Origin: a virus
IMG/VR virus record: IMGVR_UViG_3300032053_012801
DNA length: 64,000 bases
Reading direction: 5' to 3' (one strand)
Below, piece after piece: positions 1,386-64,000 of the stretch. The position numbers were made by a program, and so were the translations under genes. The first letter of the stretch is position 1. Each line of letters starts with the position of its first letter. Under the pieces are notes generated by a model. The model worked only from the letters and a program-made list of their open reading frames with translations, did no database searches and had not been told where the DNA came from.

Positions 1386-1560
1386 CCATTAGATTGTGTT
1401 GTAAAACTTTTGTCGTGCCATCAAGTGTATTAAACCAAAGTAGTAATCTGTCATTTTGCACAGTAAAACAGTCGTACAAAGACTTATGTTCTCCGCATGG
1501 TTTGACATCTTTAAATTTGTCTTTAGCAGTTTGAATCAATTTTTCTTTAATGTGTTCCAT
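1363..1560 (-). CDS. hypothetical protein
   Basis: 65-aa ORF sitting in an overlapping gene chain. Confidence 0.3.
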   Translation of the reverse strand: MEHIKEKLIQTAKDKFKDVKPCGEHKSLYDCFTVQNDRLLLWFNTLDGTTKVLQHNLMDEVHECA

Positions 1561-2173
1561 CGATTATCCTATTTGGCAACCATTTTGTTTTCCAGTGATC
1601 ATCAGTTTTGACATGGGCTTTTCGAACCCATTTTGCTATATTAATACTCATCTTATCAACTGGAAATTCATCTACGTTCCTCACAACATAGCCTTCAATT
1701 TCATCACCAAATGCAGACTTCGTTGGTACTTTGAACGTAGCATCAAACATTCCCTTGTGCAAAATCGGCACATATTTCAAGTCAAGATAATCACAAATTT
1801 CAAGCGTGTCATGAACAGATAGAAAAAACTCACCTTCTAAATCGATTGCTGCAAATACATAGAAAAATGTTGATAGCTTGTCATAGAAAATACTATGCTT
1901 AGCATAGACATTTTCTCCTACAATTTGAATGTATTCGGGTATTTTCCACGCTATTTGAGCATGAAGTGATTTGACCCATGACTGAGATGGATGATGCGCG
2001 GACTCTTCGCTTCTAGCATGACACCCGTGTTTTTTCATTGACGTACATTCGCCATCTAACTTCTCAGTATAAATTACGTTCTCACCTATCAAACACTGGT
2101 CATTCTCAAGTATCTCGTCGTCATCTGAGATACTTTCAGAGTTAGCGAGGTGCCTAGTTCTAGGATACTTCAT
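1547..2173 (-). CDS. ATP-dependent RNA ligase-like nucleotidyltransferase (Rnl family)
   Basis: Carries KLDGE (nucleotidyltransferase motif I KxDG) and EGYVVRN (motif IV-like), plus a basic C-terminus. The 208-aa size is typical of small Rnl/DRB0094-type ligases. Confidence 0.55.
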   Translation of the reverse strand: MKYPRTRHLANSESISDDDEILENDQCLIGENVIYTEKLDGECTSMKKHGCHARSEESAHHPSQSWVKSLHAQIAWKIPEYIQIVGENVYAKHSIFYDKLSTFFYVFAAIDLEGEFFLSVHDTLEICDYLDLKYVPILHKGMFDATFKVPTKSAFGDEIEGYVVRNVDEFPVDKMSINIAKWVRKAHVKTDDHWKTKWLPNRIIDGTH

Positions 2174-4784: not shown

Positions 4785-5717
4785 ATGATAGACCAACAAA
4801 TATTAGAACTTTACAACAGTGGCAATGTCACGGTGACAGCTCTAAATCAACAATTTGGTAAATTAGTCGTTAATCATGCATTGAAAAATAAACGACGATC
4901 ACCGCAAGCTGCTCAAAAAATAGCTAGAAAACTCTTACCAGAAAGTTACAAACTAACAGATGAAACAAAACAGAAAATATCTCAAATCAGAAAAAAATAT
5001 ATAGCTGACCATCCTGAAAAGATTCCATATTTTAATAAACCCCCAAGAGACAGTTGGCCTGAAAAAATATTTGAAAATGCTTTACAGCGACATAATATAA
5101 CTGATTGGGTTAAGCATTATAGAATCTTTAAATATGAATACGATTTTGCTTTTCCTTTACTAAAAATTGATGTCGAAATAGACGGCAGCATGCACAAAGA
5201 AGATAAAGACAAAATACGAGACGACTGGTCAAAGTCGCAACAATGGACAGTCATCAGATTTAAGGCAAAACACGTTTTGCGTGATGTCGAATCATGCATA
5301 AGTTTGCTAAAAAAATATCTTGAAAGCAATTCGCTTGATATACAGAGTCAAATAAACACATCATTCTTAGCAACAAAAGGTCAAAATCAACGGAACAGCT
5401 TTTCTCAAAACAATCAACTTGAAGCTTCGTCTTATATACAAAATCAAATAAACGAATCATTTTTAATGACAAGAACTCAAGGAGAACGAAATAAAATACT
5501 AAATCAGCAAAAACAGCAAGAAAAGAAACAAGCACATCAAAAATTACAGCAAGATAAAATCGATAAAATACTACAATCAGGTATTGACTTTTCAAGTTTT
5601 GGTTGGGTAAAACAAGTAGCTCATATGACTAACACTCTGCCACAAAAAGTTAACAAATGGATGAAGAAAAACATGCCTGACTTTTATGAAAACAACTGTT
5701 TTAAGCGTGCGCGCTAA
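4785..5717 (+). CDS. DUF559/Vsr-like endonuclease-domain protein (freestanding homing-endonuclease-like) with Gln-rich C-terminus
   Basis: Carries ...KIDVEIDGSMHKEDKDKIRDDWSKSQQWTVIRFKA, the DUF559 'ExDGxxH...R' core. It is the only plus-strand gene in a minus-strand block. Confidence 0.5.
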   Translation: MIDQQILELYNSGNVTVTALNQQFGKLVVNHALKNKRRSPQAAQKIARKLLPESYKLTDETKQKISQIRKKYIADHPEKIPYFNKPPRDSWPEKIFENALQRHNITDWVKHYRIFKYEYDFAFPLLKIDVEIDGSMHKEDKDKIRDDWSKSQQWTVIRFKAKHVLRDVESCISLLKKYLESNSLDIQSQINTSFLATKGQNQRNSFSQNNQLEASSYIQNQINESFLMTRTQGERNKILNQQKQQEKKQAHQKLQQDKIDKILQSGIDFSSFGWVKQVAHMTNTLPQKVNKWMKKNMPDFYENNCFKRAR

Positions 5718-6424
5718 TCTTCTCTAACATTGACATGTTTTTCAACATAATCCCTATTCTTTGAGAATATCGGTATTTGCAAATCAACTACATTGTCAAC
5801 AATACAAAAACCTCGTTTTCTTACTACAGGATACTTGTCAAAATTGATGCCCTTCTGAAACAACATTTCTTGAATATCATTACATGACTTCTGAAACAAA
5901 TCTTTGTGCGAATAATTCTCACGACCGGCCATCTGAATTGCATTGCGTGTTGCGTCGATTTGCCTCCAGATGAAATAATTAGTCACTTCATCTTGAGGTA
6001 CAGAAAATACTCTACTATCAAAGCATACATTCTTACCATAGAGCCTTGAGAACACACTGCTAGCTAATGAAGCTGAAATCGATATCATCTTACAGACATC
6101 ATAGTCAAACCACGAATCAGTTGTTATCGTCTTATAATCAGTCAATAGAAAACTAATCTCATCCGACTGACAATAACAAAATTTGCAACCTTGTATATCT
6201 TTAGCTACTACTTTCGCTGTTTCAATCATTTGGTCAACAAATTCCATTGACCATCCCTTACCAAACCTCTTGCGAGTAATAGTGTGAAATGCTCGGCCAT
6301 CTATTCTCAAAATCACTGGTATCCTGTGAGGCAACGTCCAGTGAAAACATGACTCGTAGCGTTTCATACGATCGCCAATAGATAATCCGTCAGACTTGCT
6401 CATGGTCTTATTCCTACTGTACAA
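5714..6424 (-). CDS. Thg1-like protein (tRNA-His guanylyltransferase family / tRNA 5'-end repair)
   Basis: ILRIDGRAFHTITRK... and ...CQSDEISFLL match the Thg1 signatures (RxDGxxFHxF and SDExSF). Confidence 0.65.
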   Translation of the reverse strand: MYSRNKTMSKSDGLSIGDRMKRYESCFHWTLPHRIPVILRIDGRAFHTITRKRFGKGWSMEFVDQMIETAKVVAKDIQGCKFCYCQSDEISFLLTDYKTITTDSWFDYDVCKMISISASLASSVFSRLYGKNVCFDSRVFSVPQDEVTNYFIWRQIDATRNAIQMAGRENYSHKDLFQKSCNDIQEMLFQKGINFDKYPVVRKRGFCIVDNVVDLQIPIFSKNRDYVEKHVNVRED

Positions 6425-13490: not shown

Positions 13491-13976
13491 TCAATTTCTA
13501 TAATCTTCTTGATTTTTTGCAACAACGTTATTCTCAACATCCCAAAACACTTCTTTTTTAATCTCAACTTCATCGGGTTTCTTTGGCCACCATGTAACAC
13601 TATAATAAATCATAGTCTTTGACACGGGATCTGACATCATCTCGCAAACATTTTGCGAACTTGACGTCCCATCCAACGAAAACAAACCAGGCATAACCCT
13701 TCTTACTGGTAATCTAAGCGCATTCAACATTGTCGGACTTCCATCACTCATTCGTACATTTTGTGCATCGATAATCTGTTCTCTAGTATAATCACTAGTC
13801 TCAACCCATTTCTTCTTAAACTTCACAGGCACATTCTTTAACGCAGCTTCAATAACTTTCAAACACTCAGAACAATGATGAGGATCATTATACTCCGGCA
13901 TAAACCCATACGTACTTGGATGATACGTATACACGCAATTACAATGATCACACCTTTTAATTCTTGACGTTGTCAT
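13491..13976 (-). CDS. hypothetical zinc-ribbon protein
   Basis: 161-aa ORF with CDHCNC...HHCSEC at the N-terminus. Confidence 0.4.
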   Translation of the reverse strand: MTTSRIKRCDHCNCVYTYHPSTYGFMPEYNDPHHCSECLKVIEAALKNVPVKFKKKWVETSDYTREQIIDAQNVRMSDGSPTMLNALRLPVRRVMPGLFSLDGTSSSQNVCEMMSDPVSKTMIYYSVTWWPKKPDEVEIKKEVFWDVENNVVAKNQEDYRN

Positions 13977-14488
13977 AATAGTTTCAAATGCCCAGTAACT
14001 TCATCAATCTTCTCTGAATCATCAGGCCCAATAGCCAAACAAGTAATAGTCTTCACGCCCTTAAACTCAGTCAATCCACAATCCTCAATCAGCGCTACAG
14101 GCAAGCTCATGGATTCTGCCTTAGCCTTTATCTCTAACAGCTCAGCTTCTGAACTCACTTGCAAACAAATTTTAGTGAATATACCCTCCATCCACTCTCT
14201 CATTTGCCCAGTAACACTCATCATCGGCCTATCATCCAAATACTCAACCCTATCAAAAAACACTTTCATTGAAGCATGAGCGCCCTGAGCAATCATCTTG
14301 CCCTTCCTCATGTTCAAGTCAGTTCTCATGATAATTACTTGCTTGATCATAATATAGTCCTCTTCAATGCGTTCGTAAGTAGTAAATCTATGACCAAGTT
14401 CACATACACGACGTCGACGTAAACGATCACCTGATTCTCTAGAATCAATAACCTTGGTCTGTCTATGACACTGTGGACATGGTAGCAT
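13973..14488 (-). CDS. peptidyl-tRNA hydrolase PTH2-family domain preceded by an NrdR-like zinc ribbon
   Basis: The C-terminal ~125 aa read IIMRTDLNMRKGKMIAQGAHAS...LAIGP, which is PTH2-like. The N-terminal ~45 aa read CPQCHRQTKVIDSRE...RRRRVCELGHRFTTYE, which looks like a 4-Cys ribbon with an NrdR-like pattern. Confidence 0.5.
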   Translation of the reverse strand: MLPCPQCHRQTKVIDSRESGDRLRRRRVCELGHRFTTYERIEEDYIMIKQVIIMRTDLNMRKGKMIAQGAHASMKVFFDRVEYLDDRPMMSVTGQMREWMEGIFTKICLQVSSEAELLEIKAKAESMSLPVALIEDCGLTEFKGVKTITCLAIGPDDSEKIDEVTGHLKLL

Positions 14489-14685: not shown

Positions 14686-14989
14686 TGCCCGGGGCCGGAC
14701 TCGAACCGGCACGATCTTGCGACCAAGGGATTTTACTTGCTACTTCGTCTTTCGACGCCAGCTTTCGCTGTTTGTAGTCTGGACTTTGTCTTCACCATAG
14801 TGAGTTCACTTTAGGTGGATGCCGTTAAGTCTCTACACCTTCCAGTACTTTTCAGTACTAGCTTGGCTCGGCGTTGGGTCGAGTTTAACTCAGGCCGTTC
14901 ACCGAATTTGACATCTTACATCTATACCGTTTCCAGTATAGCGACCCATTTCTTCGAGTCCCTAGTGTCTACCGTTCCACCACCCGGGC
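14686..14989 (-). tRNA. tRNA-Leu (anticodon TAA) interrupted by a ~221-nt group I-like intron in the anticodon loop
   Basis: Exon 1 (14957-14989) reads GCCCGGG-TG-GTGG-AACGGTAGA-CACT-AGGGA-CT. Exon 2 (14686-14735) reads TAAAA-TCCCT-TGGTCGCAAGATCGT-GCCGG-TTCGAGT-CCGGC-CCCGGGC-A. Joined, they give anticodon loop CUUAAAA, as in cyanobacterial and plastid trnL-UAA. The intron (14736-14956) starts after a U that can pair with intron G (a short P1 with U.G), and it ends ...GUAGCAAG (terminal G). It contains AAGUCCAGACUACAAACAG, similar to the R/P7 element of the Anabaena trnL intron, plus two GAAA-tetraloop hairpins. Confidence 0.6.
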
Positions 14990-15004
14990 AATCATCTCAG
15001 CAGT

Positions 15005-15171
15005 TGAAGCAAGACTCGAACTTGCAATGTCAGATGCGTCTGTCTGCTCTGACCGTCAGTTATTGCCGTGAGACAGAGATAATGGTCTGGAATAATTCTC
15101 ATATCTTGCTCCATTATCTATCCTTCAATTGGCTTGACCTCGACGACGTCTACCAGTTTCGTCATTCAACT
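15005..15171 (-). other. split tRNA-like element, unresolved: Leu-like 5' half and canonical T-arm/acceptor 3' half separated by ~85 nt
   Basis: The 5' half reads AGTTGAA-TG-ACGA-AACTGGTAGA-CGTC (Leu-type D-loop). The 3' half reads GCAAG-TTCGAGT-CTTGC-TTCAACT-G, with a perfect 7-bp acceptor pairing between the two halves. No canonical anticodon arm can be placed. Confidence 0.3.
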
Positions 15172-18951: not shown

Positions 18952-18967
18952 AGTTCCTCGAATAATA

Positions 18968-19229
18968 CTCTCGCTCGGACTTGAACCGAGATAGCGTTAG
19001 CAAAGTTCCTATTAGGAAACGCGATTCCTGCCGCACATAAACCCTCTGGGACTGTTACCAGATTCCCAGCAGCGTGTCAGTTCTGCCGCAACCTTGGAAC
19101 TTCCTTAACTTCGAGCCTAATCTTACGACTAGTAAAGTCTCATAAAGACTTACTCTAATTAAGTCTAACACTCCTTTTACAGTACCGGTTCGTTTTTACC
19201 GGTGCTTTACCGTTAAGCTACGAGAGTAA
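18968..19229 (-). other. split tRNA-like locus, unresolved: tRNA-like 5' module and canonical T-arm/acceptor 3' module ~185 nt apart
   Basis: The 5' module reads ACTCTCG-TA-GCTT-AACGGTA-AAGC-A-ACCGGT-(8-nt loop AAAAACGA)-ACCGGT. The 3' module reads CTCGG-TTCAAGT-CCGAG-CGAGAGT-A. The acceptor pairing between the modules is 7/7. The intervening ~185 nt contain a strong hairpin and an AAAGGAG motif. No tmRNA-type tag ORF is present. Confidence 0.3.
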
Positions 19230-19396: not shown

Positions 19397-19559
19397 AAAT
19401 TTTCACTCCAATCGGTTCTTTATTATCGAACAACTTTTGTAACTTAACTACGCTCTCTACAGGAAGCTCAAAATCATCGACCAACTCTTTAGCAGCTTGT
19501 CTAGCAGCTAAATCATCAATCTGTTCCATCGGAATCTTGATAATGAGTTGGTACTTCAT
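19395..19559 (-). CDS. hypothetical small protein (start trimmed to the internal Met)
   Basis: The track ORF 19395..19697 reads through tRNA-Gly. The ATG at 19559 has an AGGAG RBS. It encodes MKYQLIIKIPMEQIDDLAARQAAKELVDDF... (54 aa). Confidence 0.35.
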   Translation of the reverse strand: MKYQLIIKIPMEQIDDLAARQAAKELVDDFELPVESVVKLQKLFDNKEPIGVKI

Positions 19560-19575
19560 CTTAATCTCCTGTAAA

Positions 19576-21260: not shown

Positions 21261-21270
21261 ATAAATTCAG

Positions 21271-21360
21271 TGGCCCCGGCAGGATTTGAACCTGCGATGT
21301 GAGCCGTAAGCTCAGACAGATTAAAAATCTGTTACCCTCGATCCGCTAGGTGACGGAGCC
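21271..21360 (-). tRNA. type II tRNA (Ser-like D-loop, 5-bp variable-arm hairpin) carrying anticodon TTT; identity uncertain
   Basis: Reverse complement reads GGCTCCG-TC-ACCT-AGCGGATCGA-GGGT-A-ACAGA-TTTTTAA-TCTGT-C-TGAGC-TTACG-GCTCA-CATC-GCAGG-TTCAAAT-CCTGC-CGGGGCC-A. A long variable arm combined with a Lys anticodon is a non-canonical pairing. Confidence 0.5.
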
Positions 21361-27331: not shown

Positions 27332-28495
27332 TTATGCTTTTATGACAGCTAATGGTGAAAGTTCTACTACAATATCCACCAAATCTTTTTGATTGTCCAT
27401 AACAACACTTATGTCTTTGTAAGCACCGGCAGCTTCATCTAAGTCAGCTTTATTTCGAATGGCATGAATGATGCCTTGATCATCAAGTAGTTTCTTTTCG
27501 GCATCTAAATTCAATTCTCTTTGTGCTTGTTTCCGTCCCATTTTTCTACCAGCACCGTGCGAGCATGACATGAATGAATCTTCATTACCTTTGCCACGTA
27601 CTACATAGCTTTTTGTACCTTGAGAACCGGGTATCAATCCGATTTGATCTTTTCTGGCTGATGTCGCACCTTTTCTGTGAACAATGACATCTTCACCAAA
27701 ATGATGTTCCCAAGCTGCATAATTGTGATGAATGTTGATTGTTTCATCAAACGTAATTCCTGAAATATCAAAAGATTGTTTTATTGTGTCAATCATTCGA
27801 AATCTGTTCTCTTTTGCAAACTCAAGTGCAAACTTCATGACATCAAAGTATTCATGTGCTTCTTTTGTTTCCATTGGAAGAAACGAAAGGTCTTTGTCGG
27901 GTATACTCGAATACCATTTCTCGCATAGCCATTGTGCTTTCTTATGATATTCATTGGCTATTTTCAAGCCAAAATTCCGAGAACCAGAATGTAGCATGAC
28001 CCAAACAAAACCATCTGATCCCTTTTGAATCTCAATGAAGTGATTGCCACCTCCTAGCGTACCAAGCTGAGTCTGTGCTGTACTCAATTGCTGTTGAATA
28101 ATTGCTACATTAGGTGCTCGATCAAACCCTTCCCACGATATTTTCTCTTTGTGATGTTCGAATCCTACAGGGACTGCTTCACGAATCCTTCCCATTGTCT
28201 TTTTCAATTCATCTTTGTCAATTGATTGCAATGACGTCTTAACTGCACACATGCCGCAACCAATGTCAACACCAACAGCATTTGGAACTATGACGCCTTT
28301 GGTTGCCATAACGCCGCCAATTGGCATCCCGTAGCCAACGTGCCCGTCAGGAGACAAAGAAATATGACTAAATACAAAAGGTAATATTGCCAAATTCTCT
28401 ACTTGTTTAACCATTGCATCATCAGCATAATAGCTACTTTCGTTCATCCAGACTTTTACTGGCACACGAAATTGATCTTTTTTATATGAAAACAT
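27332..28495 (-). CDS. rtcB: RtcB-family RNA-splicing ligase (3'-phosphate/5'-OH RNA ligase)
   Basis: PDGHVGYG, DIGCGMC, GGGNHF, HNYAAWEHH, HRKGATSA and SHGAGR: the full set of RtcB metal- and GTP-binding motifs. Confidence 0.9.
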   Translation of the reverse strand: MFSYKKDQFRVPVKVWMNESSYYADDAMVKQVENLAILPFVFSHISLSPDGHVGYGMPIGGVMATKGVIVPNAVGVDIGCGMCAVKTSLQSIDKDELKKTMGRIREAVPVGFEHHKEKISWEGFDRAPNVAIIQQQLSTAQTQLGTLGGGNHFIEIQKGSDGFVWVMLHSGSRNFGLKIANEYHKKAQWLCEKWYSSIPDKDLSFLPMETKEAHEYFDVMKFALEFAKENRFRMIDTIKQSFDISGITFDETINIHHNYAAWEHHFGEDVIVHRKGATSARKDQIGLIPGSQGTKSYVVRGKGNEDSFMSCSHGAGRKMGRKQAQRELNLDAEKKLLDDQGIIHAIRNKADLDEAAGAYKDISVVMDNQKDLVDIVVELSPLAVIKA

Positions 28496-29537: not shown

Positions 29538-29972
29538 TTATACATTTTTGAGTCCAACTAGAGCAGGATCAGGAATTGGTATGTTAATTCCTATTGGCCG
29601 CCACAAATGTAAACAATGAGGATGTTGGTTTACATATAGACTTTTGGGAGGATGAAATTGAAAAACTGCATCTTCTTGATCCCAAAATAGATCTTTGACT
29701 TCACTCATTTCAATCCAATTTGGACATCGATTCTTCAATGACACTGAAACGTGCTCCCAACCATAACCGTCACTAGCTATAGCAAACACTGTCATGCAGT
29801 TTGTAGTTGGCACAAAAAATGCGCCATTGTTACCATCCGAGTCTTCGCTCGTATATGGATGATTTTGCTTTCGAAATCTATACAGATTTGGTACGTGAAA
29901 CATGCTTTGTCCAAGTATTGAAATTACAAGTCTTGTATAGAAAAAGAATAATATCGACGACTTCTTTGTCAT
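29538..29972 (-). CDS. hypothetical protein
   Basis: 144-aa ORF. Confidence 0.35.
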   Translation of the reverse strand: MTKKSSILFFFYTRLVISILGQSMFHVPNLYRFRKQNHPYTSEDSDGNNGAFFVPTTNCMTVFAIASDGYGWEHVSVSLKNRCPNWIEMSEVKDLFWDQEDAVFQFHPPKSLYVNQHPHCLHLWRPIGINIPIPDPALVGLKNV

Positions 29973-30549
29973 CTCCGTACTTTGTATACAGCATGCTTTT
30001 CAAATCCGGTTGTTCAATTTTATCAGATCCGTCTTTGATTTCTGTTTTTCTGTTGTTAAAAGCATCCACAAAATCACAAATAGATATGATTGTTGAAATT
30101 TCCAAAACTTTTTTGATAGTTGACGGTGACCAATTCTCAGGAAAAGCATTTCGATCTAAACCGTAACCTGCTTTGTAAAGATTATGATGCAAACCTGCAC
30201 AAAGAGCCGTGAACATGTGCAGCTTCTTGAGAGCCTTGTAGCCTGCTTGGGCATGAGTTTTTACATTATCGTATTCTACTGCATCTATGTTATGTCCGTC
30301 AAATAACTGAGCTGGCAGTAAAAGTTTGCCGGCATCATGTAGAAGACCTGCAAAAAAGGCAGCTTTTGCATCTTTTCGCAGTTTCTTTGCTGTTGCTTCT
30401 GCAAGCAGTGCTACTCTTTCCAAATGATCTTTTGTAGAAACATGATTCACATCACACATGGCCAGAATTAAACGAGCAGTGTGTGCAAGATCGCCTTTTG
30501 GATTGTACGCTCGAATTTTTGATTCGATTAGAGTAGATCGCTTCATCAA
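29878..30549 (-). CDS. HD-domain phosphohydrolase
   Basis: ...AGLLHDAGK... and HHN..YKAGYG: the HD motif. Confidence 0.55.
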   Translation of the reverse strand: MMKRSTLIESKIRAYNPKGDLAHTARLILAMCDVNHVSTKDHLERVALLAEATAKKLRKDAKAAFFAGLLHDAGKLLLPAQLFDGHNIDAVEYDNVKTHAQAGYKALKKLHMFTALCAGLHHNLYKAGYGLDRNAFPENWSPSTIKKVLEISTIISICDFVDAFNNRKTEIKDGSDKIEQPDLKSMLYTKYGDDKEVVDIILFLYKTCNFNTWTKHVSRTKSV

Positions 30550-31067: not shown

Positions 31068-31239
31068 TATCTACACCTTTCAAAAATTCTGTATAACATC
31101 GCGCAGAACAGCATCTGTGATTTGCTGGTATGTCTCCGTATACACGCGTCGATTCTTTGACATTGAATGATTTACTGCAGACTCTACAGCTTATGTTTTT
31201 AGCCATAGTATAATAGTCAATTAGAATAGCTATGAAAAA

Positions 31240-31311
31240 TGCCTCGAGCCAGATTTGAACTGGCGATAACGGTTTTAGAGACCGTCACTTTGACCGCTAA
31301 GTTATCGAGGC
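31240..31311 (-). tRNA. suppressor tRNA (anticodon CTA, reads UAG amber)
   Basis: Reverse complement reads GCCTCGA-TA-ACTT-AGCGGTCA-AAGT-G-ACGGT-CTCTAAA-ACCGT-TATC-GCCAG-TTCAAAT-CTGGC-TCGAGGC-A. This is a clean class I cloverleaf with anticodon 5'-CUA-3' at positions 34-36. Confidence 0.75.
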
Positions 31312-31318
31312 ATTTCCA

Positions 31319-62135: not shown

Positions 62136-62926
62136 GCATTGTCCTCCTCTAGTATTTTTTTAGCAAGAAGCTTACCGTTTTCATTAATGTTATGAGGGCA
62201 ATCAGTCCATGAACACCATTTACAATTATCACTTACTACTTTCTCAAAACAATCTGCTTCTATTGCATCGAACATCTTGTCAACTTTTTTCATCACAGCG
62301 TAATAATCTTCATCTGTAACTTTCACATCAACTATTCTATTCTCTTTCTTTGACGGATGCACAAACCTCACGCAATCTTCAATCATATCAAATTGCTTAG
62401 CAAGAGCCCAACTGTAAAGTATCGCCTGCAATCTATACTTCTCTGCACTGTGTTTGCCTGTTTTCCAATCCAAAATGTAGATCTTACCATTTACTTCAAT
62501 AAGTAAATCCATGTACCCGTGAACATTAATCAAAAACCTACTATTACTATACGGTTGCTTAAATTCAAGCTCTGACCCTATAGACTCATGCATCCAATCG
62601 TTCTCTTTTGCCATAGCGACCCAGTTTTTTATCAGCGTAAAACCTGAGCCTCTTGCATATTTCAATTCTATTTTTTCAGCCTTTTGCACTTTGACTTCAA
62701 TATCAAAAAATTTCTCCCAATTTTTGAACAGATCATATACTCTAAACGTTTTTTGTTCGTAAAATGACTCTAGTAATTTATGAAATGCTTGACCAAGCAC
62801 TAATGGAGCACTTGGCACTTTAAGAGTCGGGCGCTTAAGCACTTTATCTTGCTTAAACGCCCAAGGACACGTGCAAAAGTAATTTATTGTGGATGCTGAT
62901 AAATTGAAATCAAGCTTTTTCAACAT
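62132..62926 (-). CDS. PD-(D/E)XK nuclease, Cas4/RecB-like with Fe-S Cys cluster
   Basis: N-terminal C(TCPWAF) plus C-terminal CKWCSWTDCPH (3-4 Cys). Core D..ELE..K-like catalytic residues (GYMDLLIEVNGKIYILDWKTGK). Confidence 0.6.
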   Translation of the reverse strand: MLKKLDFNLSASTINYFCTCPWAFKQDKVLKRPTLKVPSAPLVLGQAFHKLLESFYEQKTFRVYDLFKNWEKFFDIEVKVQKAEKIELKYARGSGFTLIKNWVAMAKENDWMHESIGSELEFKQPYSNSRFLINVHGYMDLLIEVNGKIYILDWKTGKHSAEKYRLQAILYSWALAKQFDMIEDCVRFVHPSKKENRIVDVKVTDEDYYAVMKKVDKMFDAIEADCFEKVVSDNCKWCSWTDCPHNINENGKLLAKKILEEDNA

Positions 62927-64000
62927 TCTTCCTTACTGAATCAGACAACCACTTTGTAGCCTTTTCATGCTTAACAGCTGTTTCACTCGCACGATAATTT
63001 GTATCCTTCTTCAAATTCTCAAGAACAGCTTCAATCTCCTTATCACTCTTGTTCAGAGTCTTAGCTCTATTAACAACAAAAGCTTCAACTTCTTCTTTAG
63101 ATGCAGTAAAGTTATTGATCATACTAACATGATCTAAAAATATCTTTACTTCAAGAGTCTTTTCAACTCGAGGTCTCTTTTGAGCATAAAATACGTCTTT
63201 ACCATTCTTATTCTTCTTCAAAAACTCATCTTCAGTCGTTCCCATACGATACAACAGTTGATGCCATTCGTTAGCAAGTTCCCATTCAATCATAGCTGTA
63301 GGTATCGGCTCAATCTTGGCCTTCAATACACACTGTGTCAAAATGTCAGACTCATAATTCTCTTCATCAATTTTAGCATGATCTACAATAAGTTTGTCAC
63401 GAATAGCTTGTCGAAATCCATCCATGGTCTTATCATCATCACTTGCAAGCTGCTCAATTGTCTTAATCTGTTTTGAACCGATTTTTGTAATCTTCACAGT
63501 GAATTCAGCGTTCTTACCTTGTAACTCTTTTGCATGATAATCATCAGGAAACTTAGTTATGACCTTACCTTCTTCATTCAACTTGAACTTGACCATTTGC
63601 TCTTCAAAACCACTAATGAATTTTGTCTCACCAACAACAAATCTAAAATTCTTAGCAGTTCCACCAGAAAACGATTTACCATCTACTTGACCTGAAAAAT
63701 CTATGATCAAAGTGTCACCATTTTTGATCACATAATTTGAATCAGTAATATTCTCAAACAAAGCTTTTGAATTTTGTATTGTCTTAATCTGATCATCAAC
63801 CATTTGTTCTGATACTACTGTGACATTTTTCACTGCACTAACTTCATTAATGTCAAACCGTTCAACTGCCGGTTTCAAATACACTGTAGCCTGAATTGTC
63901 AATGGCACATTATCCTCAAATGGACCAACGACTTCAAAATCAGATGCTTCAACAACTTCAAGCTTCAATTGTTCAAGAGCTCTTTTGTACAGCACATCAA
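62910..64000 (-). CDS. tig: trigger-factor-like protein (ribosome-associated chaperone with PPIase-domain homologue), N-terminus outside the window
   Basis: IDFSGQVDGKSFSGGTAKNFRFVVGETKFISGFEEQMVKFK and FPDDYHAKELQGKNAEFTVKITKI align with E. coli Tig [41 protein letters not shown] and [24 protein letters not shown]. The track ORF begins at 63995, but the homology implies more N-terminal sequence upstream. Confidence 0.7.
   Translation of the reverse strand, partial: DVLYKRALEQLKLEVVEASDFEVVGPFEDNVPLTIQATVYLKPAVERFDINEVSAVKNVTVVSEQMVDDQIKTIQNSKALFENITDSNYVIKNGDTLIIDFSGQVDGKSFSGGTAKNFRFVVGETKFISGFEEQMVKFKLNEEGKVITKFPDDYHAKELQGKNAEFTVKITKIGSKQIKTIEQLASDDDKTMDGFRQAIRDKLIVDHAKIDEENYESDILTQCVLKAKIEPIPTAMIEWELANEWHQLLYRMGTTEDEFLKKNKNGKDVFYAQKRPRVEKTLEVKIFLDHVSMINNFTASKEEVEAFVVNRAKTLNKSDKEIEAVLENLKKDTNYRASETAVKHEKATKWLSDSVRKNVEKA

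What the first reader, a model, noticed from the sequence alone, without database searches (positions are those of the whole stretch)
18968..19229. Third split tRNA-like locus with ~185-nt insertion after an anticodon-like arm bearing an 8-nt loop
The 5' module has acceptor ACUCUCG, D-arm GCUU-AACGGUA-AAGC and an ACCGGU/ACCGGU stem with an 8-nt loop (AAAAACGA). The 3' module has T-arm CUCGG-UUCAAGU-CCGAG and acceptor CGAGAGU-A. The acceptor halves pair 7/7.

The ~185-nt interior has a long near-perfect hairpin (AGUAAAGUCU...AGACUUACU) and an AAAGGAG motif. The overall shape is tmRNA-like, with the tRNA halves at the two ends. However, no reading frame ends in a degradation-tag-like ...AA stop, and a genuine D-arm is present, so tmRNA is unlikely.

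The remaining candidates are an intron-bearing tRNA with insertion in the variable region, a tRNA-derived regulatory RNA, or a decayed gene.
Basis: seen in the sequence. Interest (0 to 1): 0.55.

Follow-up and report, generated by a model that had tools for sequence, protein, structure and literature searches.

The report
tRNA-framed structured RNA in phage
A gene in the tRNA cluster of an uncultured large phage encodes a 262-base RNA with the ends and elbow of a tRNA, but with a roughly 190-base insertion (a folded domain closed by its own stem) where the short variable arm should be; the domain is conserved in a distant relative and matches no known RNA family.

Summary
Window 18966-19227 (minus strand) encodes a tRNA-shaped RNA. 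It has a 7/7 acceptor stem, a canonical D-arm and T-arm, and an anticodon-like hairpin with an aberrant 8-nt loop (AAAAACGA, no U33). An insertion of about 190 nt sits at the variable-arm position.

The insertion is not junk. Its core (closing helix S1, helix S3, a GUAA-capped hairpin Pa, hairpin H4 and long invariant joining strands) and the T-arm recur at about 80% identity in an unrelated metagenomic phage contig (L260). Twelve base pairs there are changed on both sides and still pair.

It matches no Rfam family. It is not a tmRNA, a group I or II intron, a known ribozyme or a standard tRNA. Only three lineages carry it for certain.

In the relatives it lies directly downstream of a zinc-finger/DUF559 homing endonuclease. 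That endonuclease family always sits beside tRNA-Met genes.

Best reading (inferred): a stable, tRNA-scaffolded non-coding RNA that is processed like a tRNA. The main rival is a new kind of variable-loop intron that travels with the endonuclease. A decayed gene is unlikely. Function is untested.

The parts
18966..19227 (-). The whole tRNA-framed RNA gene: 262 nt to discriminator A73, with no encoded CCA.
   Evidence: Sequence. A custom split-tRNA finder recovers exactly these limits. The gene is identical in 7 metagenome contigs and 261/263 identical in the sister phage.
19221..19227 (-). Acceptor stem, 5' strand ACUCUCG.
   Evidence: Pairs 7/7 with 18967-18973.
18966..18973 (-). Acceptor stem, 3' strand CGAGAGU, plus discriminator A.
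19204..19218 (-). D-arm GCUU-AACGGUA-AAGC, carrying A14, G18 and G19.
   Evidence: Accepted by ARAGORN after in-silico deletion of the insertion.
19184..19203 (-). Anticodon-arm-like hairpin ACCGGU/ACCGGU. Its 8-nt loop AAAAACGA (19190-19197) has no U33.
   Evidence: ARAGORN reads it as a four-base anticodon AAAC.
19173..19183 (-). Single-stranded linker ACUGUAAAAGG. It ends in GG, as do the equivalent stretches in L260 and L259.
19165..19172 (-). Helix S1, 5' strand AGUGUUAG. S1 closes the insertion.
   Evidence: Pairs with 18993-19000. In L260 the helix is GACAAUAA/UUAUUGUU, with 4 pairs changed on both sides.
18993..19000 (-). Helix S1, 3' strand CUAACGCU. It is followed by AU and then the T-stem.
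19104..19163 (-). Variable arm S2. It is a 7-bp stem (CUUAAUU/AGUUAAG) carrying a small three-way junction. One hairpin is AAGUCUU-UAU-GAGACUU and the other is CUAGUC-GUAA-GAUUAG.
   Evidence: From the MFE fold only. In L260 it is replaced by a simple hairpin, CAUUUU-AUAUUAAG-AAAAUG.
19002..19103 (-). Conserved core, the S3 domain. It comprises helix S3 (19096-19103 with 19002-19009), hairpin Pa with a GUAA loop (19046-19069), hairpin H4 (19014-19029) and invariant joining strands, including two copies of UGCGGCAG (19083-19090 and 19028-19035).
   Evidence: 79.5% identical to L260 over 127 nt, E = 3e-27. S3 has 2 compensatory pairs and Pa has 3. RNAalifold recovers S3, Pa and H4 independently. 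UGCGGCAG occurs only twice in the 64-kb window, both times here.
18974..18990 (-). T-arm CUCGG-UUCAAGU-CCGAG.
   Evidence: It is an orphan T-arm in the motif scan. In L260 it is GUGAG-UUCGAUU-CUCAC, with 3 of 5 pairs changed on both sides.

Best explanation
The locus is one gene for a stable, tRNA-scaffolded non-coding RNA that belongs to a small, previously undescribed family.

Shown:
- The RNA has a complete tRNA frame: acceptor stem, D-arm and T-arm, with all the elbow-forming nucleotides.
- In place of the variable arm it carries an insertion of about 190 nt: a three-way-junction domain of about 180 nt (S1 to S1) behind an 11-nt single-stranded linker.
- The closing helix S1, helix S3, the GUAA hairpin Pa and the T-arm are kept by compensatory changes in a distant phage lineage.
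- Several long unpaired strands are invariant between the lineages.

Inferred:
- The RNA is transcribed with the minus-strand tRNA array.
- RNase P and a 3' tRNA-processing nuclease cut it out because it looks like a tRNA.
- It receives CCA, since none is encoded.
- It persists as a 262-nt molecule.
- The tRNA frame provides processing, stability and access to tRNA-binding proteins. The conserved core provides the specific activity, which is either binding or catalysis.
- It probably does not decode. The anticodon-like loop has 8 nt and no U33, and the bulky arm would probably not fit in the ribosome (not tested).
- In a phage that carries 30 tRNAs, RtcB, an Rnl-type RNA ligase, a Thg1-like enzyme and PTH2, the most plausible role is as a tRNA mimic or adaptor. 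It would act on host or phage tRNA-handling proteins, for example tRNA-targeting defence nucleases or repair enzymes. That last step is speculation.
For: Anatomy.

The tRNA frame is accepted by ARAGORN once the insertion is removed.

No Rfam family reaches E <= 10 on the locus or on the L260 copy.

Covariation: across C, the sister-phage copy and L260, 35 pairs are 99% paired and 12 are changed on both sides (S1 4, S3 2, Pa 3, T-stem 3). No shuffle of 500 reached this, and slid controls gave 0-3. RNAalifold finds S3, Pa and H4 on its own.

What the two lineages share is the T-arm, S1 and the core. L260 has no D-arm and no anticodon-like arm, yet its T-arm keeps perfect pairing and a canonical T-loop.

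The anticodon-like loop is the same aberrant AAAAACGA in both phages that have it.

S1 leaves the frame as a class II variable arm does, with two or three bases (AU here, UAC in L260) before the T-stem.

The same phages carry several tRNAs with unusual long variable arms.

The tRNA-handling enzymes are shown.
Against: No expression data exist, so the size of the mature RNA is unknown.

Only two independent lineages, plus one near-identical copy, give covariation. The S1 register in L260 was chosen by eye.

The 99% identity with the sister phage does not prove selection. The broken tRNA-Met fragments beside the element are also 100% identical, which points to a recent recombination block.

L260 may be a 5'-truncated relic made by the endonuclease gene rather than a working short form.

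In L259 a tRNA 5' half with a normal CAU anticodon loop is followed by sequence that resembles the start of the insertion. That fits an intron in a real tRNA better than a non-decoding RNA.

The neighbouring tRNA-Leu carries a genuine intron.
Confidence: 0.42

Rival explanations
1. A new kind of intron in the variable loop of a phage tRNA. The insertion would be removed from the transcript either by its own catalysis or by a nuclease followed by the phage's RtcB or Rnl ligase. It would spread together with the free-standing zinc-finger/DUF559 homing endonuclease found just upstream in relatives. This is collaborative homing: the insertion interrupts the endonuclease's target in the tRNA gene and so protects its carrier.
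For: - The endonuclease gene abuts the element in L257, L260 and probably L259. Its reading frame ends inside the first 10-15 nt of the tRNA frame.
- The endonuclease family always lies beside tRNA-Met genes.
- The invariant unpaired strands and the variable peripheral arm S2 look like a ribozyme core with a dispensable periphery.
- U44 before the insertion and G233 near its end would leave a 5-nt variable loop, UCUAU.
- A group I intron sits in the tRNA-Leu(UAA) gene 4 kb away.
- RtcB and an RNA ligase are encoded.
- Collaborative homing is documented for phage introns (PMC3984707, PMC2790892).
Against: - No group I or II, bulge-helix-bulge or self-cleaving ribozyme signature is present. There is no P7 (R/S) element.
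- The core of about 100 nt is smaller than any group I intron I know of (from memory; Azoarcus, about 205 nt, is among the smallest).
- No splicing endonuclease was found among about 64 window ORFs screened.
- The spliced product would still have a non-canonical 8-nt anticodon loop.
- The window copy has no endonuclease next to it.
- The U...G junction is expected by chance about half the time.
- The T-arm co-evolves with the core, as in a single long-lived gene.
Confidence: 0.28
2. A cis element of the homing-endonuclease cassette. The tRNA-like structure and core would form the 3' end of the endonuclease mRNA. They could set its 3' end, limit its expression through RNase P cleavage just before the stop codon, or simply be carried along by co-conversion. 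The window copy would then be what remains after the endonuclease gene was lost.
For: The endonuclease frame runs into the element in L257, L259 and L260. The block shared at about 100% between the window and the sister phage includes the endonuclease insertion point.
Against: In the window and in 7 population contigs the element stands without any endonuclease, directly after an intact tRNA-Met. Six other members of the endonuclease family have no such element. A complete tRNA frame is not needed for a 3' UTR element.
Confidence: 0.12
3. A decayed tRNA gene. Under this reading, a tRNA was hit by an insertion during endonuclease-driven recombination, then lost its anticodon loop, and now has no function.
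For: The array is full of tRNA fragments and chimeras next to endonuclease genes. The anticodon loop is aberrant. L260 lacks the 5' arms. The near-identity with the sister phage is explained by recent exchange.
Against: Twelve compensatory pair changes and long invariant unpaired stretches at about 20% overall divergence are not expected of neutral decay. The fold is far more stable than shuffles. All elbow nucleotides of the frame are intact.
Confidence: 0.08
4. A divergent phage tmRNA, or another ribosome-entering tRNA. One version would be a frameshifting tRNA that reads a four-base codon with its 8-nt loop.
For: The tRNA halves are at both ends with a large body between them. An SD-like AAGGAG is present. 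ARAGORN reads a four-base anticodon AAAC once the insertion is removed.
Against: - ARAGORN makes no tmRNA call and no Rfam tmRNA family matches.
- The 3:70 pair is U-A, not G-U.
- The only frame open in both lineages changes amino acids freely and ends in RVS.
- A four-base-decoding role would require removal of the insertion.
Confidence: 0.03

Closest known systems
tmRNA (SsrA)
   Same: The tRNA-like acceptor and T-arm are formed by the two ends of the molecule. A large structured body is attached through one connecting helix between the D region and the T-arm. It would be processed like a tRNA. The L260 form, with an acceptor and T-arm but no D-stem, resembles the tmRNA tRNA-like domain even more closely.
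   Different: The window RNA has a full D-arm and an anticodon-like arm. It has no G3-U70 alanine identity pair, no resume codon or degradation-tag frame, and no series of pseudoknots. Neither ARAGORN nor Rfam calls it a tmRNA.
Class II tRNAs (Leu, Ser, Tyr, Sec) with a long variable arm
   Same: An extra helix leaves the core between the anticodon stem and the T-stem, with two bases before the T-stem. The same phages carry tRNAs with unusual long variable arms and Lys, Ile or Met anticodons.
   Different: The arm is about 180 nt with two sub-domains, whereas the long variable arm of a class II tRNA is only a short hairpin (from memory, roughly 10-25 nt). An 11-nt unpaired linker precedes it. 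The anticodon loop has 8 nt and lacks U33.
Bacterial tRNA genes with group I introns (for example tRNA-Leu(UAA); Azoarcus tRNA-Ile)
   Same: It is a tRNA gene interrupted by a structured RNA of about 200 nt with GNRA loops. A genuine example lies 4 kb away in the same array. It is linked to homing endonucleases.
   Different: Those introns sit in the anticodon loop and carry the P3-P9 core, and Rfam finds them. Here the insertion is in the variable region and has no P7. It gives no RF00028 hit even at E <= 10, and its ends pair with each other.
Archaeal bulge-helix-bulge tRNA introns at non-canonical positions
   Same: Those introns can lie in the variable region, and the exons are sealed by RtcB, which this phage encodes.
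   Different: No bulge-helix-bulge motif can be drawn at the junctions. No splicing endonuclease was detected. The genomic context is bacterial phage (NAD-dependent ligase, SD-type sites).
Other tRNA-like small RNAs: bacterial YrlA (Y RNA) and the stable RNAs C and D of the phage T4 tRNA cluster (from my own knowledge)
   Same: These are non-decoding RNAs that mimic tRNA, are made or processed with tRNAs, and in the case of YrlA are linked to RtcB operons.
   Different: In YrlA the topology is reversed, with the ends in the Ro-binding stem. No Ro60 gene was found here. There is no sequence or Rfam similarity to any of them.

Membership tests
tmRNA | Detected by tmRNA-specific models (ARAGORN; the Rfam tmRNA families). 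| tested here: not met
   ARAGORN finds 30 tRNAs and no tmRNA. Rfam at E <= 10 on 273 nt gives no tmRNA hit.
tmRNA | A G3-U70 pair in the acceptor stem, which gives alanine identity. | tested here: not met
   The 3:70 pair is U-A in the window copy and C-G in L260.
tmRNA | A short conserved tag reading frame that ends in a stop codon. | tested here: not met
   The one frame open in both lineages is 25-30 codons long, lies in paired regions, and changes amino acids at the compensatory sites.
Group I intron | A conserved core (P3-P8 with a P7 guanosine-binding site) that RF00028 can recognise. | tested here: not met
   No RF00028 hit at E <= 10. The same model finds the tRNA-Leu intron at 14756-14966 with 53.6 bits. 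No R/S-like elements are visible by eye.
Group I intron | A 5' exon ending in U that forms a U-G pair in P1 with a guide sequence near the intron's 5' end, and a terminal G on the intron. | tested here: inconclusive
   U44 and G233 could serve, and a U70-G119 wobble exists in S2. No guide sequence lies near the 5' end, and such U...G combinations are expected by chance.
Group I intron | Self-splicing in vitro with guanosine and Mg2+. | not testable with these tools
   This needs an in vitro splicing assay.
Canonical tRNA (RF00005) | A cloverleaf of 70-95 nt that tRNA models can detect. | tested here: not met
   Rfam and ARAGORN do not call it as it stands. It is called only after in-silico removal of the insertion.
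Canonical tRNA (RF00005) | A 7-nt anticodon loop with U33 and a purine at position 37. | tested here: not met
   The loop is AAAAACGA: 8 nt with A at the position of U33.
Canonical tRNA (RF00005) | The acceptor/T-arm stack and the elbow nucleotides (U8, A14, G18, G19, T-loop UUCRANY, the 15-48 pair). | tested here: met
   All are present: U8, A14, G18G19, UUCAAGU, and A15/U48.
Archaeal-type BHB intron | A bulge-helix-bulge motif at the exon-intron junctions and a splicing endonuclease (EndA). | tested here: not met
   No 3-4-3 motif can be drawn around S1. No tRNA_int_endo domain was found in about 64 ORFs screened. The rest of the phage genome was not available.
Known self-cleaving ribozymes (hammerhead, twister, pistol, hatchet, HDV and others) | A match to the family covariance model. 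| tested here: not met
   No hit at E <= 10 in either lineage.
RNase P RNA (specificity-domain relic) | Similarity beyond a single hairpin to bacterial RNase P RNA. | tested here: not met
   A 13-nt identity, CUGGUAACAGUCC, exists with E. coli rnpB. The local alignment score of 26 is below the maximum for shuffles (30). Only 10 nt are shared in L260, and there is no Rfam hit.

The most novel reading that the evidence does not exclude
The insertion is the first example of a new class of self-excising or self-splicing RNA. It would reside in the variable loop of phage tRNA genes and have a catalytic core of about 100 nt unrelated to group I or II introns. It would spread by collaborative homing with a free-standing zinc-finger/DUF559 endonuclease that targets tRNA genes. 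The exons might be sealed by the phage's own RtcB or Rnl ligase.
Probability: 0.18. Interest if true: 0.9.

Novelty: new variant of a known kind. Interest (0 to 1): 0.62.

Why it matters
Phage tRNA clusters are usually read as simple codon-supply or anti-defence devices. This locus shows a conserved, structured RNA domain of unknown family built into a tRNA frame, in a genome that is rich in tRNA repair enzymes and homing endonucleases.

If the RNA is stable, it joins the few natural RNAs, such as tmRNA, that use a tRNA frame to carry another function. It may then point to a new way for phages to interfere with host tRNA-binding proteins.

If it is removed from the transcript, it would be a new intron type and a new insertion position for bacteria and phages.

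In either case standard tRNA and Rfam annotation cannot see it. The covariance model built here gives a handle for finding more copies.

Tried and rejected
Hypotheses tested and rejected:
- **tmRNA:** no detector call, no G3-U70 pair and no tag frame.
- **Group I or II intron and known ribozymes:** Rfam finds nothing at E <= 10 in two lineages. My manual attempt to map P1-P9 failed, because nothing follows S3 that could form P8 or P7.
- **BHB intron:** no motif and no endonuclease.
- **RNase P specificity-domain relic:** the 13-mer match is a chance GNRA hairpin.
- **Protein-coding insertion:** there is no ORF, and the substitutions are compensatory in RNA, not synonymous.
- **MITE:** the only terminal inverted repeat is the 8-bp S1, and there is no target-site duplication.
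- **Similarity among the three split loci A, B and C:** none.
- **Parent isotype of the frame:** none is clear. The best match is 69% to a Vibrio phage tRNA-Ile.

Searches that led nowhere:
- GenBank phages by blastn.
- E. coli genomes.
- Five of the IMG/VR pattern scans returned only the sister phage; one of these (88) also gave a chance hit. A seventh returned nothing.
- A scan for the repeated UGCGGCAG motif returned 120 chance hits.
- The single metagenome scan, with a D-loop...T-loop pattern, was swamped by adjacent tRNA pairs and found nothing useful.
- Two GTDB genome scans found nothing.
- Relatives reached through the downstream 127-aa protein (59-74% identity) have ordinary tRNAs at that place.
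- The 202-aa neighbour has only two clusters among 5.8 billion proteins.
- Model R1 found no further copy in about 1.7 Mb of held sequence.

The productive route was the endonuclease gene next to the sister-phage copy.

Full report
**Context**

The window comes from a large uncultured phage. ARAGORN finds 30 tRNA genes, all on the minus strand between 3.3 and 35 kb, including a suppressor tRNA(CUA).

The surrounding genes include the following:
- RtcB
- an Rnl-type RNA ligase
- a Thg1-like enzyme
- PTH2 fused to an NrdR-type zinc ribbon
- an NAD-dependent DNA ligase
- PolX
- several homing-endonuclease-like ORFs (DUF559, HNH, NUMOD3)

A scan for T-arm motifs shows three 'orphan' T-arms on the minus strand that no tRNA call covers.
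- **Locus A** (14686-14989) is a tRNA-Leu(UAA) with a group I intron that Rfam recognises.
- **Locus B** (15001-15171) is a tRNA-like RNA with an insertion of about 90 nt.
- **Locus C** is the subject of this finding.

**The observation**

On the minus strand, 19227 to 18966 reads as follows:
- acceptor ACUCUCG
- U8 and A9
- D-arm GCUU-AACGGUA-AAGC
- A26
- hairpin CCGGU-AAAAACGA-ACCGG, extendable to 6 bp by A26-U44
- an 11-nt linker
- about 180 nt of structured sequence
- AU
- T-arm CUCGG-UUCAAGU-CCGAG
- acceptor CGAGAGU
- discriminator A

Neither ARAGORN nor Rfam calls anything here. A permissive Rfam search on 273 nt also gave nothing, apart from a meaningless 16.9-bit match to a thermometer family.

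When the insertion is deleted in silico, ARAGORN calls a tRNA with an 8-nt anticodon loop and a four-base anticodon AAAC. It does so in 30 of 32 junction variants, and this is the commonest result among 12,460 single deletions. The tRNA frame is therefore real, but its anticodon loop is not a normal decoding loop.

**Anatomy of the insertion**

The minimum-energy fold is -90 kcal/mol, with z = -4.3 against dinucleotide shuffles. It closes the insertion with an 8-bp helix, S1 (56-63 with 228-235 in RNA numbering). From S1 spring two arms.

- **S2 (65-124)** is a 7-bp stem that carries a small three-way junction. One of its hairpins is capped by GUAA.
- **S3 (125-226)** is an 8-bp stem that encloses long joining strands, a second GUAA-capped hairpin (Pa) and a hairpin H4.

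The octamer UGCGGCAG occurs twice in the core and nowhere else in the 64-kb window.

Against 115 same-length windows of the same strand (mean z = -0.46, sd 1.3), the insertion (z = -3.4 to -4.3) lies in the lowest few per cent; three windows were as low.

**Relatives, first round**

The element is 100% identical in seven metagenome contigs of the same phage population, which differ from the window by 0.3-0.7% overall. This carries no information about selection.

A sister phage (IMG/VR UViG_3300035659_001474; loci L001, L257 and L258) has it at 261/263 identity. Orthologous tRNAs of the two phages are 68-97% identical, and the flanking DNA is 78-86% identical.

This is not proof of selection. 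In the sister phage the neighbouring tRNA-Met is broken by a 1-kb insertion, and the two dead fragments are also 100% identical to the window. The whole 350-bp block is therefore a recent recombination tract.

More distant relatives were reached through the downstream 127-aa protein. They have ordinary tRNA-Ile and tRNA-Ser genes at that position.

Pattern scans of IMG/VR, one metagenome scan and two genome scans added nothing.

**Relatives, second round**

The 1-kb insertion in the sister phage encodes a zinc-finger protein with a DUF559/Vsr-like nuclease motif. The gene is interrupted by one in-frame TAG, after which the frame continues into the first 15 nt of the element.

Its homologue P0125 (46% identity) lies on a 2.6-kb contig, L260 (identical to L261). 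Directly after its stop codon comes a diverged copy of the element. That copy is 79.5% identical over 127 nt, E = 3e-27, and covers S3, Pa, H4, the 3' strand of S1 and the T-arm.

The differences are concentrated in helices and are compensatory.
- S3 changes from GAAGUUCC/GGAACUUU to GAAGAUUC/GAAUCUUU.
- Pa changes from CUGGGA/UCCCAG to CCAAGA/GCUUGG.
- S1 changes from AGUGUUAG/CUAACGCU to GACAAUAA/UUAUUGUU.
- The T-stem changes from CUCGG/CCGAG to GUGAG/CUCAC.

On an ungapped alignment of S2-deleted constructs, 35 pairs are 99% paired and 12 are changed on both sides. None of 500 column shuffles reaches this, and sliding the partners by 1-3 columns gives 0-3 such pairs.

On the core alone, 5 compensatory pairs are found. 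RNAalifold predicts S3, Pa and H4 without guidance.

The irregular lower part of the long hairpin in the single-sequence fold is not supported, because two of its pairs break. That region is instead almost invariant. The invariant strands are:
- CAAGGUUGCGGnAGAACUGAnACGCUGC
- GAAUCUGGUAACAG
- GAGGGUUnAUGUGCGGCAGGAAUCGCGUUUCCUAAU

A possible 5-bp pseudoknot (UGCGG with the H4 loop UCGCG) cannot be tested because it never varies.

S2 is replaced in L260 by a plain 6-bp hairpin, so it is a variable peripheral arm.

One caveat applies. I placed the 5' strand of S1 in L260 by complementarity, so its four compensatory pairs are less independent than the other eight.

**The frame in the relatives**

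L260 has its own T-arm with a canonical T-loop and the acceptor 3' strand CAGAGAC-A. On the 5' side there is only GUCUGCG-UAG-UGG before S1. That gives 5 of 7 acceptor pairs, no D-arm and no anticodon-like arm, and the UAG is the endonuclease's stop codon.

This could be a truncation caused by the endonuclease gene. It could also be a short form that resembles a tmRNA tRNA-like domain. I cannot tell which.

In L259 (endonuclease 51% identical) the stop codon is again U8-A9-G10 of a downstream tRNA. That tRNA has a regular D-arm and a regular CUCAUAA anticodon loop. It is followed by 52 nt without a T-arm that resemble the linker, S1 and S2 start of locus C; 11 of 500 shuffles score as well. 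The contig then ends. This is suggestive only.

The endonuclease family as a whole is always found at tRNA-Met genes. It often leaves tRNA fragments and chimeras behind, and six of its members have no C-like element.

**What it is not**

- **tmRNA:** no detector call, U3-A70, and no conserved tag.
- **Group I or II intron or known ribozyme:** no model hit in either lineage, no P7, and the ends pair with each other.
- **BHB intron:** no motif, and no splicing endonuclease among about 64 screened ORFs.
- **RNase P relic:** the 13-nt identity to E. coli rnpB is a GNRA hairpin and is not significant.
- **Coding sequence:** the substitutions are compensatory in RNA and change amino acids.

**What it most likely is**

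The secure conclusion (about 0.85) is that this is a genuine RNA gene under selection. It combines a tRNA frame with a conserved structured domain at the variable-arm position, and it belongs to no described family.

How it works is inferred. I favour a stable tRNA-scaffolded RNA (0.42), for these reasons:
- The parts shared by the two lineages are the T-arm, S1 and the core, not a decodable anticodon.
- The anticodon-like loop is aberrant wherever it is present.
- S1 leaves the frame exactly as a class II variable arm does.
- These phages show a tendency to elaborate variable arms.

On this reading the frame gives RNase P and 3'-end processing, CCA addition, stability and access to tRNA-binding proteins. 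The invariant core binds a partner or catalyses a reaction.

The main rival (0.28) is a new variable-loop intron that moves with the adjacent endonuclease, as in collaborative homing (PMC3984707, PMC2790892). The endonuclease linkage, the ribozyme-like conservation pattern, the neighbouring genuine intron, the L259 hint and the encoded ligases all fit this reading. No known catalytic signature or splicing enzyme supports it.

Two lesser rivals remain: a cis element of the endonuclease cassette (0.12) and a decayed gene (0.08).

**Novelty**

As far as the searches here go, no matching family or description was found: nothing in Rfam 15, and nothing in five full-text searches. I rate it a new variant of a known kind (tRNA-like or tRNA-framed non-coding RNAs). 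There is an 18% chance that it is something categorically new, namely a new intron or ribozyme class.

Noticed in passing
window 14686-14989 (-); intron 14756-14966; also L001 1254-1566 and L130 19931-20299: A tRNA-Leu(UAA) gene carries an IC3-like group I intron (Rfam 53.6 bits), apparently inserted after U33. It is conserved in the sister phage and in a more distant relative. A 2014 review (PMC3984707) states that all phage introns then known were in protein-coding genes, so introns in phage tRNA genes deserve a note.
   Followed up: partly
window 15001-15171 (-): Locus B is a second tRNA-like gene that no detector finds. It has a 9-bp acceptor helix (GCAGUUGAA/UUCAACUGC), a D-arm, a T-arm, a long variable-arm-like hairpin and about 90 nt in place of the anticodon loop. 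It has no Rfam hit, its fold z-score is only -1.4, it is unrelated in sequence to locus C, and it is absent from the sister phage.
   Followed up: partly
window 21270-21360 (-); L257 3285-3375 and 8891-8977; L260 389-476; L259 1005-1093; L262 1193-1277; L130 8324-8411: These tRNAs have long, class II-like variable arms but anticodons for Lys (UUU here; CUU in the 96.7%-identical sister copy), Ile (UAU) and Met/Ile2 (CAU). As far as I know, in bacteria only Leu, Ser, Tyr and Sec tRNAs have such arms. They might be charged by a class II-arm-recognising synthetase, or they might escape host nucleases.
   Followed up: no
window 31239-31312 (-); L130 2060-2134; L257 8372-8374: A suppressor tRNA(CUA) is encoded. 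In the sister phage the endonuclease gene has a single in-frame TAG after which homology continues. This may be TAG read-through or recoding, although related endonuclease genes end in TAG.
   Followed up: no
L257 6618-8609; L259 1128-1961; L260 512-1471; L262, L265, L266, L268-L271: A family of free-standing zinc-finger plus DUF559/Vsr-like endonuclease genes is always found at tRNA-Met(CAU) genes. The reading frames end inside the tRNA: at U8-A9-G10 in L259 and L260, in the D-loop in L257, and in the anticodon loop in L271. They leave tRNA fragments and a chimeric Met/Val tRNA (L257 7524-7606).
   Followed up: partly
window 1547-2173, 5714-6424, 13973-14488, 27332-28495, 29878-30549, 62910-63995: A dense tRNA and translation toolkit is present: an Rnl-type RNA ligase, a Thg1-like guanylyltransferase, PTH2 fused to an NrdR-type zinc ribbon, RtcB, an HD-domain protein and a trigger-factor homologue.
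   Followed up: no
window 19398-19575 (-): The gap between tRNA-Val and tRNA-Gly holds a small gene of about 54 codons with an SD and an AUG. Its RNA folds unusually well (z = -4.6). It is conserved at 81% in the sister phage.
   Followed up: no
L130 8229-8323: Between two tRNA-Met genes of a related phage lies a 95-nt GC-rich stretch that looks structured (UGAUGUGCG...CGCACAUCA). I did not examine it.
   Followed up: no
L133 15011-16123: A TnpB/Cas12f-like gene sits inside the tRNA array of a related phage.
   Followed up: no
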